From Isurus oxyrinchus (lineage: Eukaryota): a DNA stretch of 64,000 nt. The notes beneath the pieces were generated by a model. It saw only the letters and a list, made by a program, of their open reading frames with translations, was not told the origin of the DNA and made no database searches. A program made the position numbers and the translations under genes. Where the stretch lies: assembly GCA_026770705.1 (NCBI GenBank), contig JANJGN010000022.1, forward strand, positions 3,038,001-3,102,000, read 5' to 3'. The first letter of the stretch is position 1; the number at the start of each line of letters is the position of its first letter. Below are positions 9,056 through 50,521 of the stretch, one piece after another.

Positions 9056-9302
9056 GCATTGTGAGAGAGAAAAGCAGAGTTAACATTTTGTGTCCATATG
9101 ACTCTTCAGAGCTCTGAAGAAGAGTCATACGGATTCGACATGTTAATTCTGTTTTTCTCACCACAGATGCTATTAGACCTGAGTTTTTCCAGCATTTTCT
9201 GTTTTTGTTTCAGATTTCCAACAACTGCAGCATTTTGCTTTTATCTAAGCATTGAGACACAGGTCTGTGGCCCTGCGTATTTAGTGTTTTATTTCTGTCC
9301 AG

Positions 9303-9580
9303 GAGAAGGTTCGGAAGAAGACCGAAGAGCCAGAACGTGATGACAAATTAAAACGTGAGAGAGAAGAAAGGGAGCTGGAACGAGAGCGAGAGCGGGAGGA
9401 GCGAGAGAAGAAACGGCGGCGGGAAGAGGAAGAGAAGGAGCGGGAGCGAGAGGCGCGGCGGAGGAGGAGCCACTCGCGGAGCCGGCATTCCCATTCCAGT
9501 CGGACGTCCGACAGGAGGCGAAGCAGGTCGCGAGAGCGCAGGCGGTCACGCAGTAAGGAACGGGAAAAGAAACGGAGCAG
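9303..9580 (+). CDS. LUC7L3: LUC7L3 exon 8 (EKVRKKTEEPERDDKLKRE..., RE/RS-rich)
   Basis: gtccag| acceptor, AG|gtatgg donor, 278 nt, phase 0 to 2. Confidence 0.93.
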
Positions 9581-10375
9581 GTATGGAATTGTAGCCCTAG
9601 GGGACAGCTTAGAATTATAAAAAAATTACAGTGAACAGAAATTGGCCCTTCAGATCAATTGCTGCATGCCATTGTTAATGGCCCCACAAACCCCCTCTCT
9701 CAATTCATCTCCTTGTGTTTTTACATAGTCTCCCCACAAATGCATTTATGATATTTGCCCCAGCCACTCCTTGTGGTATTGCATTCTATTGTAGCACTAA
9801 CTGAAGTCCTCATAACTGAGTGATGGGAAGCTGTAGCCTGCGTTTCTCGCTCCCTGAAGGTGGTAGTTCACATGGTTGTGTGCCGCAGTTATTCTGCAGT
9901 GTCGTCTCCAAATGCCCTTGCTTGACATGTGAGCCTAAATAAGCAGCAAGTGCCTGTTGTTTAACCTTGGGTGCTATTGCATCCGTTCTTGCCTCTGCTT
10001 GGCATTGCACTCATAAGCAGGAGCTATTGACCAACCAGGATGTTTAGTGTTGTCTTTATGGAGCGTCTGTGTGCCATGTAACTCCAGTTTTCAGCAGCTT
10101 GTATCCAGTCATGCAGTTACTGGTGAACAGCGTTCCCTCTAAGGCCAGGCAAAGTCAATCAAGTACCACGCACATCCTGATGGTTAAATGCCCATGAGCA
10201 AGGGAAAGGTAGACTCCCCGTGACAGGAACGGAATGGATGAGAGTCATTCATTTGTGTCAGTTCATAGAGCCCAAAGCTATGTTAACACTTGTCTTTCCT
10301 GCCGCCTGCTCACTGCTTCCCTCCACAGCCCACCAAATCTAAGCTCTTCTCACTCTCCTGCATCCTTTCTCACAG

Positions 10376-33153: not shown

Positions 33154-33432
<279 letters not shown>

Positions 33433-35494: not shown

Positions 35495-35808
35495 CTGAAC
35501 CAGCCAATAGAAGAACAGCAAAGGGACAGTCACGAGGAGGAAGGCTGGACTCAATGAACAGCAAATGAGCAGGACTGTCAGTGTGTAAAAGCAGCAGCGA
35601 ATCCAAATGTCAAGTTCCTCTGGAATGCTGACATCAATCGTATCCATATCTTTACCAAAGCGATTCAGTATCCTCCCAGTGGGAGTCAATTCGAAGAAGG
35701 ACAGAGAACAACAGAGGATATGCTCAAGCATATTGAGGTGTATCAAACTTGAGGCCCTGAGCATACAGTATGCTCGGCTCAGACAGCAGGCCAATAACAT
35801 GAAGAGCC
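35495..35808 (-). CDS. ABCC3: ABCC3 exon 23 paralogue C (GLFMLLACCLSRAYC...FFELTPTGRILNRFGKDMDTIDVSIPEELDIWIRCC...FFYWLVQ)
   Basis: Pyrimidine tract, gcacag|GG acceptor, CAG|gtaaat donor; 314 nt, phase 1 to 0, no stop. Confidence 0.85.
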
Positions 35809-37062
35809 CTGTGCGAGGAGAAGAGGGAGAACAATGAAAGGATACAGAAAACACAAAGGGCACACATGTATCAGGGAGACAGAAAAAAAAAGCAAGGAAG
35901 ACTTGCATTTACATAGCGATTTTTGCAAACACAATGTCTCAAAACACTTCACAGCCAATGAAGTACTTTTTGAAATGTAGCCACTTGTAATGTAGGAACT
36001 GCAGCAGTTAATATGCACACAGCAAGCTCCCACTAAACAGCAATGTGATAATGATCAGATAATCAATTTGATTTTGAGATTTTGATTGGCAGAGTTGGTC
36101 CCAGGCTAGGGACTGAACAGCAAGTGTGAGCACACAGGTAAAGATTCAGGTGTGGAAATGGGATAATCCCATAACCCCCAATCACTCACTCCCCAACAAC
36201 ACTACCAAGACCAGCCAAGCAACAGGAACCCAACTGTTAAAGGGCCTGGGGGCTGCTCAGCCCTTACTGTTAAAACCTTGCTCCCTTCTCAGCAAGCATT
36301 CTGGAAAATACATTCCCCTTTCAGATACAGTGGGTTGATGGTGGCGAAGCGATTGGGAGAAGTGGAGAATAACTGTGTTTATAGGGTATAGGCAAGAGAG
36401 AAAAATGAATAGAGGGAGAAGGGGAGAGAGTGAGATGGAGTGAGACACGGCGATTGAGACAGAAAAAGCTTGAGCAAGGGACTTGCTTAATCCAGTTCCC
36501 CGCTAATCCTGTGTGAAACTAATTATCACTGCTGGTTTCAGTTTCCTGCAACTAGTGGTTTTGTTTCTCTAACCCACCCACACATTCACTCACCTCCAGC
36601 CTCACTGTCCTCATGAGATGAGGTTTACTCACAGTCAGGTGCCTTGTGGGTGGGTGGGGAGAAACTAACAGGGCCAGTTACTGGCACCATGTCAGACACT
36701 GGCACCAGGTCCAAAGTGCAGAGATTAACAACTTGAAAGAAAAATTAAAATGAAATTTAACAAGTGGAGCTGTGCTGACAACTGTTCAAAATAAACACAG
36801 AACTTATTTTCACTCTGAGCCTGGGATTTATTCTCTCTTCTGAAACTGATGTCTTGTGTTGGGCTCTAGTTCCATGCTGCTCTCTCTCTCACTTCAGCCC
36901 AGTATCCATTCCAAATGTTTGAGTCACCAATCCAAACTCAGCACAGGCTAGGGATGAGGTCTGGGCCTATGCTAAATTCTGTGTGTTGCAGTTACTGGAT
37001 TAACCAGCAGAGAAACTACTTCTAATGGGCAGGGTCCATTTCTCAGGAGACACCCCTAATAC

Positions 37063-37376
37063 CTGAAGGGAAAAGTACAGGCAAGCGATTGGAACAGAGG
37101 GCAGAAGACAGAGCGGAATGGAGTAAGCCAGCACCAGCACAGTGGATAAGACGTCAAAGAAGCACAGCAGCAGGTCCTCCACACACGCTGGGATCCGATC
37201 ATCAATCGTCTCCATGTCCTGTGAGAAACGGTTCAGAATTCGTCCAACTGGCGTCAGCTCAAAATAATGTGCAGGACAGCGGAGAGTTTGGTTAAGCAGG
37301 CGATCATGCAGGAGACAGGAGGCACGAATACAGCAGATTGCAAACAGCAGTTGGGACTCGGTGTAGGACAGGAAGC
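37063..37376 (-). CDS. ABCC3: ABCC3 exon 23 paralogue B (GFLSYTESQLLFAICC...YFELTPVGRILNRFSQDMETIDDRIPACVEDLLLCFF...CLYFSLQ)
   Basis: tttttgtccaacag|GC acceptor, CAG|gtatta donor; 314 nt, phase 1 to 0, no stop. Confidence 0.85.
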
Positions 37377-37494
37377 CTGTTGGACAAAAACCAGGTGTTA
37401 CTGCCCTGATGTATCACCGCAGGCTTTGAACAAGCACCAAACAAACCCAGTGTTCTCTCCTCCTAAGGGCTCAACTCTTATTTAGATGCAACTG

Positions 37495-38055
37495 GTAGAG
37501 AGAACTTTACTCTGTATCTAATCCCGTACTGTACCCGTCCTGGGAGTGTTTGATGGGGACAGTGTAGAGGGAGCTTTACTCTGTATCTAACCCCGTGCTG
37601 TACCTGTCCTGGGAGTGTTTGATGGGGACAGTGTAGAGGGAGCTTTACTCTGTATCTAACACCGTGCTGTACCTGTCCTGGGAGTGTTTGATGGGGACGG
37701 TGTAGAGGGAGCTTTACTCTGTATCTAACCCCGTGCTGTACCTGTCCTGGGAGTGTTTGATGGGGACGGTGTAGAGGGAGCTTTACTCTGTATCTAACCC
37801 TGTGCTGTACCTGTCCTGGGAGTGTTTGATGGGGACAGTGTAGAGGGAGCTTTACTCTGTATCTAACCCTGTGCTGTACCTGTCCTGGGAGTGTTTGATG
37901 GGGACGGTGTAGAGGGAGCTTTACTCTGTATCTAACCCTGTGCTGTACCTGTCCTGGGAGTGTTTGATGGGGACAGTGTAGAGGGAGCTTTACTCTGTAC
38001 CTAACCCTGTGCTGTACCTGTCCTGGGAGTATTTGATGGGGACAGTGTAGAGAGA
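37495..38055 (+). repeat. 69-bp tandem repeat (CTGTATCTAACCCCGTGCTGTACCTGTCCTGGGAGTGTTTGATGGGGACAGTGTAGAGGGAGCTTTACT), ~8 copies
   Basis: Directly visible. Confidence 0.95.
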
Positions 38056-41000
38056 ATTTTTTTTTAAAAATTCAGACTAGAGAAACAACAGTATAGGAGG
38101 CCATTCAACCCACCGGACCTGCAACAATTCTACCTCTTAAAGAAGTATCTATTTGAGTCCCATTTCCATATTCTTCTTTCTCAGGTCCTTATCAAACTCC
38201 CTTTTAAATAATTACATAGGATACACTGCCCAGAAGCAGTCCATTCAGCCCAACTAGTCTATGCTGATGTTTCTGCTCCACTTAATCCTCCTGCCATCTT
38301 TCCTCATCTAAATTTACCACCGTAAACCCTCTGTTTCCTTCGCCCTCAAATGCTTGTCTATCTTCCCCTTAAATGTATCTACACCATTTGCTTCAACCAC
38401 TCACTGTGGGAGTGAGTTCCACATTCTCACTACTCTCTGGGTAAAGAAGTTTCTCCTGAATTGCCTATTGGATCTCTTGGTGACTATCTTATATCAATGA
38501 CCTCTAGTTCTGCTCTTTCCCACAAGAAAAAACATTCTCTGTCTATCTACTCTGTCAAAACTTTCATAATTTTAAAGATCAGGTCAGCCCTCAGCCTTCT
38601 TCAAGAGAGGAGACAGCCTCTCAATCCTTTCCTGATATGTCTGGTATCATCTTAGTAAATCTTCTCTGCACCCTCTCCAGTGCCTCTAATACCCTATAAT
38701 ATGGTGACCAGAGCTGCACATGACAACTTCAGTGTCGCTGGGTCAAAATCCTGGAACTCCCTCCCTAACAGCACTGTGGGTGTACCGACACCACATGGAC
38801 TGCAGTGGTTCAAGAAGGCAGCTCACCACCCACCTTCTCAAGGGCAATTAGGGCTGGCAATAAATGCTGGCCCAGCCAGCGACACCCACATCCCATGAAG
38901 TTCTCCAAGTGCTGTCTAACCAAGGTTTGTTACAGGATTAGAATATCTTCCCTACTTTTCAATTCTGTGATCAAATCTGATCATTATCACTTTAATGCAG
39001 AAGAACATAATCTAAACTAAAAATGACTACTGTTCATGAAGAGGCTGTTTATGAATAAGCTGTTTTACAACCGATTAACACTACAAGTCCATCTGAATAT
39101 CTCATGAGAGTGAACATAAATTTAAGTTGTGCCTTTCCAACTTTTGATGTTCCAGTCTCTGCCTCAGTTGCTCCTTGTGGTAAAATTCTCTTTGTTCTGA
39201 TAAACCTTCCGAGTGAAAACATTTCTTCTAATGTTTCCTTCCTAGTGTCTCTCAGTGATAAAATCTTCAGTCTGTGGCCCCTGTAAGAGACCACATGACC
39301 TCAAATGCTCGTCTATCTTCCCCTTAAATGTAAGGAATGACCTCTTACTATTTACCCTCTCAAAACCTTTCAACAGTTTGAATACCTGCATTAGATGGGG
39401 TACGGGTTACTATGGTTCTGTTACTGGATTTGTAATCCAGAGAACATGAGTTCAAATCCCAGCATAGCAGTTAAAATAAAATCTAAAAAAAAGGCTAGTC
39501 TCAGTGACCACGAAGCTGTCAGATCATAAAAACCCAACTGGCTCATGAATGTCCTTTCGGGAAATAAACCTGTCATTCTTAGCCAGTCTCGGCCTATACA
39601 GGGATTCCAATCACATACCAACATGGTTGACTCTGAGCTGCCCTAACAAGCCACTCAGTTTCTATCGAAACCACCACCAGTGGTTTAAGAAGGTGGCTCA
39701 TCATCATCTCAGGGCAATAAAAGCTTGCCTTGCCTGTGACACTCACATCCAGAGAGCGAAATTTAAAAAGATTCTCCTTCACCTTCTCTGTTCTGCTATA
39801 CAAGTCCCAATTTTGAGTCTTTCCAATCACTAAGTTCTCTGAATTCTTTCCATTCCTCTAATATTAGGTTAGGCACCAACACGAGAACTTCCATTGTGCA
39901 TTCTTGGATCTGATTTCCAATTGGAGTAGAGGCAACTGTCTAACCTGACCCACTAGACCGGACTGGGTCGGTCCATCATTTACATCCCAACTATCTCCCA
40001 CAGGTCAGGTTACATTAGAAGTAGGAGTAGGCCCCCGAAGCTTGCTCCGCCATTCAATAAGATTATGGCTGATCTTCTTTTATAACTCCACTGTCCTATT
40101 TGATCTTCGTATCCCTCAATTCCCTCAGAATCCAAAAATCTATCAATCTCTACCTTGAATATATCCAGAGGCTGAGCATCCACAGCTCTCTGGGATAGAG
40201 AATTCCAAAGGTTCACAATCCTGTGAGCGAAGGAATTTCTTCTCATCTCAGTCTGAAATGGCAGATCTCCTATCCAGAGACTATGACCCCATGTTCTAGA
40301 CTCCAGCCAAGAAATAATCTCGTAGCATCGACCCTGTCAAACCCTCTCAGAATCTATTTCAATAAGATCACCTCTCATAGGGTGATTACCCCAGAGTGTT
40401 TGTGATGTCCATGCTCAGATGTGGGAGCCATTCCTTCACCTCCCATTTGAAACAGGAAGGATTGAAAGGCTTCCTCTACACCAATCCACTCACCAACTCT
40501 GCCTTACTTACAGGTGTCTCCCCCTGGTTTGGGATGGGGGGTGGTGGGGGGGTGGGGGTGGTGGGGGAGGTGTTTCTTCTCTGATTTTCTTCCATCAGGG
40601 CTCATTCCCCTCTCGATTTAAAAGCTCTCTGCATCACGATGTGACAGAGGCTGGAGACCTCACAGCTTATAAACCCAGAATGTCATCTGCAGACCAAATT
40701 CTTTTCAGATATCTGAGTGCAAAGGAGGCTGGTATTCTTTCACAAAACAGACCCCAATTTAACTCACCATCAGCAAACCTTTTATGTTTGGTTAAGTAAC
40801 TTGAACATTTACACATCCAGCATTGCTAAAATCTCCCAAATTCCCTGCAATTTTTTTTTTACCAATTCCCTGAATGCTCGAATACTGTTATGAAGCATTT
40901 AACCAGGGTGAAAGCTCCAAAAACCCCTGGCTCTGCCTGACAGGGACAAATGCAGTTCCCACCTGTCAGAACGTAAAGGGTTTGCTGCATAACAAATTAT

Positions 41001-48822: not shown

Positions 48823-49134
48823 CTGTACGAAGAAGTACACAATGGCCAGTGGCACGATAAGCAGAGTGAACCACGGGGTACTGGCTGTTACTACTATCAT
48901 GGTGGATAGGGAGACAAAAAAACGTCATGAGGAACATCTGGAAAGTCAGCGGAATCACTTCATCAATCACGTTCACGTCCTTGCCGAAGCGATTGATGAT
49001 GCGTCCAATGGGTGTGGTGTCAAAGAATGCCTGCGGTGTGTGTAACTTGTTGTCCAGGAGCCGTGCGTGGAGCTGTTGAGCAGCCCCCAGGCCTCCAAAT
49101 GCCAATGTGAAGGAGGAGGTCATAACTAGGATCC
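48823..49134 (-). CDS. ABCC3: ABCC3 exon 23 paralogue A, canonical-like (GILVMTSSFTLAFGG...FFDTTPIGRIINRFGKDVNVIDEVIP...VYFFVQ); apparent +1 frameshift in an A7 run
   Basis: cacag|GG acceptor, CAG|gtatct donor; 312 nt as written, in frame at 311 nt if run 48916-48922 is A6. Confidence 0.9.
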
Positions 49135-49224: not shown

Positions 49225-49830
49225 TTGCCCCCACCAACCTTACACCTACCCTGCCACCCCAGCCCTCCCCCACCAACCCCTCCCCGCTACCCCTCCCCCA
49301 CCAACCCCTCCCCACTACCCGTCCCCCACCATCACCGCTACCCACCCCCCACCAACCCCTCCCTGCTACCCCTCCCCCACCAACCCCTCCCCGCTACCCC
49401 TCCCCCACCATCACCCCTACCCATCCCCCAGCAATCCCTCCCCGCTACCCCTCCCCCACCATCCCCCGCCAACCCCTCCCCCACCATCCCCGCTACCCCT
49501 CCCCCACCATCCCCGCTACCCCTCCCCCCACCATCCCCGCTACCCCTCCCCCACCATCCCCGCTACCCCTCCCCCCACCATCCCCGCCAACCCCTCCCCC
49601 ACCATTCCCGCTACCCCTCCCCCACCATCCCCGCCAATCCATCCCCGCCAATCCCTCCCCCGCCAACCCCTCCCCCACCATCCCTGCCAACCCCTCCCCC
49701 ACCATCCCCGCCAACCCCTCCCCCACCATCCCCACCAATCCCTCCCCCACCATCCCCGCTACCCCTCCCCCACCATTCCCGCTACCCCTCCCCCACCATC
49801 CCCGCTACCCCTCCTCCACCATCCCCTCCT
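49225..49830 (+). repeat. C-rich ~23-bp minisatellite (CCCCGCTACCCCTCCCCCACCAT); G-rich on the ABCC3 transcript
   Basis: Visible tandem units; explains the Pro-rich ORFs. Confidence 0.92.
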
Positions 49831-50313: not shown

Positions 50314-50521
50314 CTTGTGTGAAGCCAAGTGCCGCGTACACTCCTACCCGCATGTACGTTTGGTGCTGTGTCCCGTTGACGACAGGGTCGTTGGTCCAGG
50401 CGCTTAGCCAGAAGCTGGCACCAATCGCTGCAGCATTCTGGCAGCAGTACAGGATACAAATCACAACAGAGATGAAGGGACCGACTGCCTTCAAGTACTG
50501 CCAGAACACAATCAACTTAAC
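50314..50521 (-). CDS. ABCC3: ABCC3 exon 22 (VKLIVFWQYLKAVG...FWLSAWTNDP...RVGVYAALGFTQ; TM12 to start of TM13)
   Basis: 208 nt, ends in phase 1 (CAA G|gtaagg). Confidence 0.95.

What the first reader, a model, noticed from the sequence alone, without database searches (positions are those of the whole stretch)
35495..37376. Alternative exons B and C are Cys-rich and change charge at known MRP specificity positions
Seen: copy A has 0 Cys, B has 8, and C has 9 (four CC pairs). Just after the conserved ID..IP, A reads LTFQMFLMT, B reads ACVEDLLLC and C reads EELDIWIRCC. Established (recalled): in human MRP1 this TM14 stretch (D1084, E1089, K1092, S1097, N1100) influences drug selectivity. By manual alignment the K1092 position is Q in A, E in B and D in C; the E1089 position is L, A and E. 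B and C share a one-codon insertion and FELTP, so they are probably sister duplicates. Inference: the B and C isoforms may favour different substrates (cationic, metal or thiol-reactive), or be palmitoylated or redox-regulated.
Basis: partly seen in the sequence, partly recalled or inferred. Interest (0 to 1): 0.7.

Follow-up and report, generated by a model that had tools for sequence, protein, structure and literature searches.

The report
Swappable pocket exons in fish MRP3
A shark gene for the bile-salt and drug export pump MRP3 (ABCC3) carries three old, conserved versions of one exon, only one of which fits the reading frame at a time, and the two minor versions replace residues whose counterparts line the substrate pocket in mammalian pump structures, so splicing likely gives pumps with different cargo preferences.

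Summary
Observation confirmed; interpretation partly supported. A, B and C are three homologous versions of the TM13-TM15 exon of ABCC3. B and C are 314 nt. A is 311 nt once one extra T is discounted; a related species' contigs lack it. C is conserved from sharks to teleosts, B in sharks and rays. Related-species RNA contigs show U-A-D as the main path, minor use of C and one out-of-frame A-C join; spliced B was not seen.

The structurally proven contacts 1093/1097/1100 read M/T/variable in A, D/C/D in B and I/(C,T)/Y in C. The anion-binding arginines lie in shared exons, so retuning is likelier than a switch to cations.

Cys richness is real, but C's CC pairs are largely absent in teleosts, which weakens the redox, metal and palmitoylation ideas. 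FELTP is not a shared mark, and B-C sisterhood is unresolved.

Tandem MRP exons are known in invertebrates. RefSeq models hold these isoforms. I found no paper on them, but could not read one key survey.

The parts
50314..50521 (-). Shared upstream exon U (TM12 region), ends in phase 1
   Evidence: Donor read; start inferred from the frame. Its last bases continue exon A in contigs of runs X2 and X3.
48823..49134 (-). Alternative exon A, the canonical ABCC3 TM13-ICL3-TM14-TM15 exon and the main form; one extra T near 48916 in this assembly
   Evidence: 96% identical over 72 aa to basking shark ABCC3; U-A-D joins and the one-base difference.
37063..37376 (-). Alternative exon B (shark and ray): E1092, D1093, C1097, D1100 in MRP1 numbering; 8 Cys
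   Evidence: 95% to Stegostoma and 87% to Pristiophorus; also in Mobula and Rhincodon models. Spliced use not seen in the 4 runs laid.
35495..35808 (-). Alternative exon C (sharks, teleosts, partial chimaera model): E1089, D1092, I1093, R1096, C1097, Y1100; 9 Cys
   Evidence: 80-83% to three shark entries; teleost orthologues. Contigs end at its donor in X2 and X3; A-C join shown in X3.
33155..33354 (-). Shared downstream exon D (RFYVATSRQ...), starts in phase 0
   Evidence: joined to A in X2.

Best explanation
A, B and C are three ancient, homologous versions of one ABCC3 (MRP3) exon, of which only one fits the frame at a time, and B and C are minor forms that likely retune which conjugates the pump carries by rebuilding the TM14 wall of the pocket while the anion-binding arginines stay the same. 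Shown: exon anatomy, frame arithmetic, conservation, A as the main spliced path, and transcription of C. Inferred: double inclusion (A+B, A+C) makes early stops that nonsense-mediated decay removes, so exclusivity is policed after splicing. Predicted: B puts Asp at the hydrophobic contact M1093 and at the sulfate/phosphate anchor N1100, so it should handle sulfated steroids or bile-alcohol sulfates and cyclic dinucleotides worse, and may favour glutathione-assisted export of cationic amphipaths. C has Ile1093, Tyr1100 and a D1092-R1096 pair, so it should stay an anion pump with a reshaped pocket. Most Cys are likely small pocket or packing residues, not a redox or metal module.
For: Each exon is 3n+2 nt, so any two or all three break the frame (A taken at 311 nt). 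A, B and C form three starred clades with long stems and short tips. Rhincodon-Pristiophorus identity is A 89%, B 89%, C 78%; shark-eel identity of C is 56-62%. B is better conserved in its own frame than in the shifted one: 36/40 vs 28/40 for Rhincodon and 31/40 vs 26/40 for Pristiophorus. Position 1093 is M in 27 of 27 A rows, D in 5 of 5 B rows (two of them identical) and I in 16 of 17 C rows; position 1100 is D/E in 5 of 5 B and Y in 16 of 17 C. Human ABCC3 M1089 is the only one of 17 listed pocket residues inside this exon (PMC10886794, table passage). Bovine ABCC1 M1092 contacts vincristine, verapamil and estrone sulfate; S1096 and N1099 anchor the sulfate and a cyclic dinucleotide; M1093A markedly alters drug susceptibility (PMC12647609, passages). 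R579, R1193, N1241, W1242 and R1245 are kept in shared exons of shark relatives. RefSeq/UniRef models join U-C-D in Scyliorhinus canicula, Rhincodon, Chiloscyllium, Pristiophorus and two eels, and U-B-D in Pristiophorus and Mobula hypostoma. A sawshark B isoform model keeps continuous helices, with pLDDT 76-91 over the exon.
Against: No transport data exist here; the specificity step rests on homology to mammalian structures. In-frame B splicing was not seen in 4 runs, and B pieces were shallow and often ran into the intron. The only C junction whose letters I saw is the out-of-frame A-C join; U-C and C-D in X2 are inferred from contig ends. Contig depths suggest C is a small share (18.9 vs 166.9 for A in X2; 6.5 vs 170.3 in X3), and the tool warns that depth is a poor measure. 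The gene models are predictions whose read support I could not check. All 10 Logan-assembled skate-type proteins use A. Co-variation of acid 1092 with basic 1096 in other MRPs is not significant (p 0.09). The fold used an alignment dominated by other exon types, so it is a weak test.
Confidence: 0.6

Rival explanations
1. B and C change gating, ATPase coupling, trafficking or stability rather than substrate choice. The extra residue in TM13, C's conserved TM13 Arg and changes in the ICL3 coupling region do the work.
For: The exon also encodes TM13 and ICL3. C has a basic TM13 residue at about position 1037 (R in 15 of 17 rows). The lowest-confidence block of the exon in the model (76) is near the inserted residue.
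Against: The TP.GR..NRF..D core is kept in all three. The class-specific invariant residues cluster on the TM14 stripe 1089-1100, which contacts substrates.
Confidence: 0.15
2. B and C act mainly as poison exons: co-inclusion after A makes an early stop and lowers ABCC3 by nonsense-mediated decay.
For: An A-C join was seen directly. Truncated A+B and A+C models recur in sharks, a ray and teleosts. Read after A, B stops after 40 codons and C after 9.
Against: A poison exon would not need a full 104-residue membrane frame kept from sharks to teleosts. Conservation is higher in the coding frame than in the shifted frame. Full-length single-inclusion models exist.
Confidence: 0.12
3. One reading: the Cys clusters make B and C metal- or thiol-reactive, palmitoylated or redox-switched.
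For: 8 and 9 Cys against a maximum of 5 in 171 other segments. 6 of B's 8 Cys are invariant in 5 rows, and 5 of C's 9 are invariant in 7 sharks. C1097 lies at a contact position.
Against: Bony-fish C keeps only about 2 of the 9 Cys while keeping the charged motif. Cys at 1097 is common in ordinary MRPs (68 of 141). The Cys are spread over TM13, ICL3 and both ends of TM14 and do not form one motif.
Confidence: 0.1
4. B and C are decayed duplicates without function.
For: Low contig depth and no spliced B in 4 runs; long stem branches.
Against: Intact frames and splice sites; B is as conserved as A between distant sharks (89% each); C has orthologues in teleosts.
Confidence: 0.03

Closest known systems
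Drosophila MRP (CG6214) and C. elegans mrp-1 tandem exon arrays (PMC9741552 section 17; PMC4165533 passages; PMC6071210 passages)
   Same: Long MRP gene with homologous, interchangeable internal exons; arrays reported to have arisen independently in several phyla. Several unnamed models among my hits carry 2-3 diverged copies of the same TM13-TM14 stretch (P0311, P0314, P0318, P0335, P0343).
   Different: Here the gene is vertebrate ABCC3 and the unit is the whole 104-105 codon exon, 3n+2 nt; the worm exons are 156 nt (3n). Competing docker/selector RNA pairings are reported for insect MRP1; none is shown here. That the fly array covers this same stretch is recalled, not read.
Human ABCC3/MRP3 and bovine/human ABCC1/MRP1 (PDB 8hvh, 8vt4)
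   Same: Same fold and pocket. Exon A aligns without gaps and keeps M1089 (ABCC3) / M1093 (MRP1).
   Different: No B- or C-type exon appeared in the annotated frog, caecilian, lizard or coelacanth cluster members I read. B and C carry pocket residues unlike human ABCC1, ABCC2 or ABCC3.
Human ABCC9 (SUR2A/SUR2B) tandem exon substitution (named in PMC9741552)
   Same: Vertebrate ABCC gene with a homologous exon swap.
   Different: The ABCC9 swap is at the C-terminus (recalled), not in the substrate pocket.

Membership tests
ABCC3/MRP3 orthologue | Best match to ABCC3 over ABCC1 and ABCC2 for exon A and shared exons | tested here: met
   PDB searches with shark relatives rank ABCC3 first; named hits are ABCC3; separate ABCC1-like and ABCC2-like loci exist in the genome.
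ABCC3/MRP3 orthologue | Anion-binding pocket residues R1193, R1245, N1241, W1242 | tested here: met
   Present in the shared exons of a shark relative; list from PMC10886794.
ABCC3/MRP3 orthologue | ATP-driven export of glucuronide, sulfate and bile-salt conjugates | not testable with these tools
   Needs vesicle assays.
Mutually exclusive tandem homologous exons | Adjacent homologous exons, same phases, near-equal length, canonical splice sites | tested here: met
   311(+1)/314/314 nt, AG..GT, 34-43% identity.
Mutually exclusive tandem homologous exons | Each copy spliced alone between the shared flanks | tested here: inconclusive
   A shown. C inferred from contig ends and from gene models. 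B from gene models only.
Mutually exclusive tandem homologous exons | Copies are never spliced together | tested here: not met
   A-C join in run X3; A+B and A+C models are common. Exclusivity holds for the protein frame, not strictly for splicing.
Mutually exclusive tandem homologous exons | Steric exclusion by a very short intron | tested here: not met
   Introns are about 11.4 kb (A-B) and 1.25 kb (B-C), from the coordinates.
Mutually exclusive tandem homologous exons | Conserved docker/selector RNA pairings | tested here: inconclusive
   The longest inverted repeats are repeat-derived or low-complexity; no DNA of relatives was available to test conservation; parts of the A-B intron read N.
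Invertebrate MRP1 exon arrays (common descent) | B or C groups with invertebrate array copies | tested here: inconclusive
   Deep branches are unresolved on 104 columns; A+B+C as one clade is neither shown nor rejected (p 0.219).
Metal-binding or palmitoylated Cys cluster | Cys motif conserved across orthologues | tested here: not met
   For C, the pairs are lost in bony fish. For B, 6 of 8 Cys are fixed, but only 5 shark and ray rows were available.
Metal-binding or palmitoylated Cys cluster | Metal binding or S-acylation shown | not testable with these tools
   Needs biochemistry.

The most novel reading that the evidence does not exclude
B and C are survivors of an MRP exon array older than the ABCC1/ABCC3 split. 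It was kept in fish ABCC3 and lost in tetrapods. B makes an MRP3 with an acidic pocket wall (D1093 and D1100 beside R579) that rejects sulfated conjugates and exports cationic amphipaths or glutathione-metal cargo. Sharks and rays would then toggle an anion pump toward a different chemistry by splicing.
Probability: 0.15. Interest if true: 0.8.

Novelty: new member of a known kind. Interest (0 to 1): 0.5.

Why it matters
Fish Abcc3 is usually treated as one efflux pump (own knowledge). A splice form conserved from sharks to teleosts rewrites proven pocket residues, so toxicology and bile-salt work on fish Abcc3 may concern only isoform A. The three exons are a natural mutagenesis of TM14 on an identical background, which makes the long-standing question of how TM14 sets MRP selectivity directly testable. 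They also add a jawed-vertebrate case to the repeated duplication of exons in MRP genes.

Tried and rejected
No RNA holder was listed on record as RNA. Runs X2 and X3 count as RNA only because their contigs join exons. Run X1 gave no contig on A, which is uninformative. B had no spliced contig in 4 runs; contigs show presence only. The joint and loose-end tables were crowded out by repeats.

A fourth copy of the exon: none in the readable window or in two own-genome searches; stretches between A and B read N. FELTP as a shared mark: rejected. B as a recent offshoot of shark C: rejected (AU p 0.0034). B+C, A+C, A+B and A+B+C: none rejected, none shown (p 0.134, 0.398, 0.347, 0.219). Co-variation of 1092 with 1096: not significant. 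Docker/selector scan: nothing convincing. The four differences in B and C in organism B (3 change a residue, 1 is silent) are too few to test selection. AlphaFold gave no coordinates, so I could not measure cavity-facing directly; I took it from published structures.

Rows dropped: for the tree, 7 partial, misframed or duplicate rows (Smax_C, Byar_C, repP0330_C, Hoce_C, Ccar_A, Espe_A, Stig_B). The AU tests used 29 of the 65 rows. The C tallies use 17 of 20 rows. In one search one outgroup row was sorted as B and one misframed model as C.

Literature: (abcc3, fish, mutually exclusive, exon, isoform) and one search listed no paper on this array; one search found nothing on the Mrp2 R1096 effect. 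Yue et al. 2017, a survey of MRP exon arrays, and the ABCC3 structure paper were not held. I recall that Yue reports arrays in early chordates but not in later vertebrates, and I cannot exclude that it covers fish ABCC3. No supplements were read.

Full report
Anatomy. The window holds the 3' half of a minus-strand ABCC3 (MRP3) gene of a shark-type genome; exon A is 96% identical over 72 residues to basking shark ABCC3. Between a shared upstream exon U (ends 50314) and a shared downstream exon D (33354-33155) lie three homologous exons: A 49134-48823, B 37376-37063 and C 35808-35495, all AG..GT. B and C are 314 nt. A is 312 nt as assembled, with an extra T that shifts its last third. Contigs of runs X2, X3 and X10 (organism B) lack one base at 48916 and X1 gave no contig; relatives' models have the intact frame. 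An assembly slip is likely but not proven for this individual. At 311/314/314 nt each exon is 3n+2, so any two or all three break the frame. No fourth copy was found, though parts of the A-B intron read N.

Observation. B has 8 Cys and C has 9 with four CC pairs; intact A has none. Among 171 other MRP-family segments the mean is 1.65 and the maximum 5. The mapping to human MRP1 is ungapped (numbers checked against the variant table of PMC7072590, passages). At 1089/1092/1093/1096/1097/1100, A reads L/Q/M/M/T/V, B reads A/E/D/L/C/D and C reads E/D/I/R/C/Y (A from its two parts).

Conservation. C matches shark models at 80-83% and has clear orthologues in teleost models with the motif IP[DE]NIDIWMRTFWY, plus a partial chimaera model. 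B matches Stegostoma at 95% and Pristiophorus at 87% and occurs in Mobula and Rhincodon models. I found no B in bony fish, no clear C in rays, and neither in the frog, caecilian, lizard and coelacanth cluster members read. These absences are weak: 90% clusters hide isoforms, and I opened only 10 of the 120 clusters listed. A, B and C are three starred clades (100/97, 100/99, 100/99) with stems of 0.66, 1.64 and 1.41. Rhincodon-Pristiophorus identity is 89% for A, 89% for B and 78% for C. B's first 40 codons are better kept in frame than in the shifted frame (36 vs 28, and 31 vs 26 of 40). From own knowledge, the shark-teleost split is over 400 million years old.

Expression. In run X2 one contig joins U-A and runs on into D (depth 166.9; letters match with 0 mismatches). 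A second contig covers 35495-35810 (depth 18.9) and runs on 27 letters past C's donor. I infer a C-D join from that overlap length, and a U-C join from the start at the shared AG; neither set of letters was shown. In X3 the C contig (364 nt, depth 6.54) begins with the end of A, an out-of-frame A-C join. B showed only shallow pieces, some running into the intron. Public models include full U-C-D forms in Scyliorhinus canicula, Rhincodon, Chiloscyllium, Pristiophorus and two eels, full U-B-D forms in Pristiophorus and Mobula hypostoma, and many truncated A+B and A+C forms. They are predictions. So A dominates, the exons are not sterically exclusive (introns 11.4 and 1.25 kb), and frame plus decay likely enforces one copy per protein.

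Which changes matter. Human ABCC3 M1089 is the only listed pocket residue inside this exon (1 of 17; PMC10886794, table passage). Bovine M1092 is the only TM14 residue among 14 LTC4 contacts (PMC8267652, passages). In ten newer ABCC1 structures M1092 contacts vincristine, verapamil and estrone sulfate; R593/S1096/N1099/Y1242 anchor the sulfate; S1096/N1099 bind a cyclic dinucleotide; human M1093A markedly alters drug susceptibility; E1089A has little effect on vincristine; K1091 is not mentioned in the main text (PMC12647609, passages). Position 1093 is M in 27 of 27 A rows, D in 5 of 5 B rows and I in 16 of 17 C rows. Position 1097 is T in 27 of 27 A, C in 5 of 5 B, and C in 7 shark and T in 10 bony-fish-type C rows. 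Position 1100 is D/E in 5 of 5 B and Y in 16 of 17 C. C's D1092 always comes with R1096 (20 of 20), one helical turn away. An ion pair is inferred; co-variation in other MRPs is not significant (p 0.09). R579, R1193, N1241, W1242 and R1245 are in shared exons. The best reading is therefore a retuned pocket, most radical in B, and not a wholesale switch to cations. An AlphaFold model of the sawshark B isoform keeps the helices, with pLDDT 76-91 over the exon; this is a weak test.

Cysteines. Six of B's eight are invariant in 5 rows. In C, five are invariant in 7 sharks, but bony-fish-type rows keep only C1108 (10 of 10) and C1033 (9 of 10). The RCC pair is private to this species among 7 shark rows. 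Cys1097 is common in other MRPs (68 of 141). The charged motif is conserved across fish and the Cys pairs are not, so thiol chemistry is unlikely to be the reason C is kept. It stays open for B.

Sisterhood. The Leu of FELTP is absent from the 19 other C rows, and FE.TP is also in ABCC1. The shared extra codon remains the one argument. Trees do not join B and C; the AU test does not reject them as a clade (p 0.134) but rejects B inside shark C (p 0.0034). B is thus not a recent shark copy of C, and an origin before the ABCC1/ABCC3 split is not excluded.

Known kinds and novelty. Homologous exon arrays are known in fly and worm MRP genes (PMC9741552 section 17; PMC4165533 passages), and independent origins across phyla are reported at second hand (PMC6071210 passages). 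Searches listed no paper on an ABCC3 array, and the scan's own index had no ABCC3 finding. Yue et al. 2017 could not be read, so prior mention is not excluded. PMC11711199, PMC10912322, PMC3724490 and PMC2680897 were seen as passages or term counts only and add little. Verdict: a real, old, apparently undiscussed vertebrate member of a known kind, with a concrete and testable pocket hypothesis; interest 0.5.

Noticed in passing
window 48916: One extra T in a T run breaks exon A in this assembly; contigs of 3 runs from a related species lack it. An automatic gene model here could wrongly pick B or C.
   Followed up: partly
window 40531-40574 and 49264-49820: Low-complexity G-rich and C-rich arms on either side of exon A are 72-83% complementary and could loop A out; conservation untested.
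   Followed up: no
window about 37480-38070: Tandem repeat with a unit of about 69 nt (23-residue period in the translation) just upstream of B's acceptor.
   Followed up: no
P0144 (Cetorhinus), exon A: Arg at the K1092 position, alone among 27 A rows, like ABCC2 and unlike other ABCC3.
   Followed up: no
P0148, P0135, P0136 (Pristiophorus), P0127 (S. torazame), P0307 (Anguilla): Models that end exon A, B or C early, at the end of TM14 or within it, suggest internal alternative donors.
   Followed up: no
L011 (G000:C15) and L012 (G000:C17): The ABCC1-like paralogue has the matching exon with similar borders and gave one hit; the ABCC2-like paralogue has it split by an intron.
   Followed up: partly
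P0332, P0392, P0411, P0438 (unnamed representatives): Unnamed MRP exons with acids at both 1092 and 1093, like B; P0332 reads DDFLLCFF. They may be convergent or ancient B-like pocket variants.
   Followed up: partly
P0204, P0206 (Callorhinchus): The partial chimaera C lacks both D1092 and R1096 as modelled; the first residues may be a modelling artefact.
   Followed up: no
P0202 (Polypterus), P0249 (Polyodon): Nine-residue tails after A are compatible with exon C read out of frame, hinting that C is present in early ray-finned fish.
   Followed up: no
window about 9280-9630, plus strand: An Arg/Glu/Ser-rich coding-like stretch of a neighbouring gene, seen from its antisense translation; LUC7L3 is a recalled neighbour of ABCC3, not tested.
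   Followed up: no
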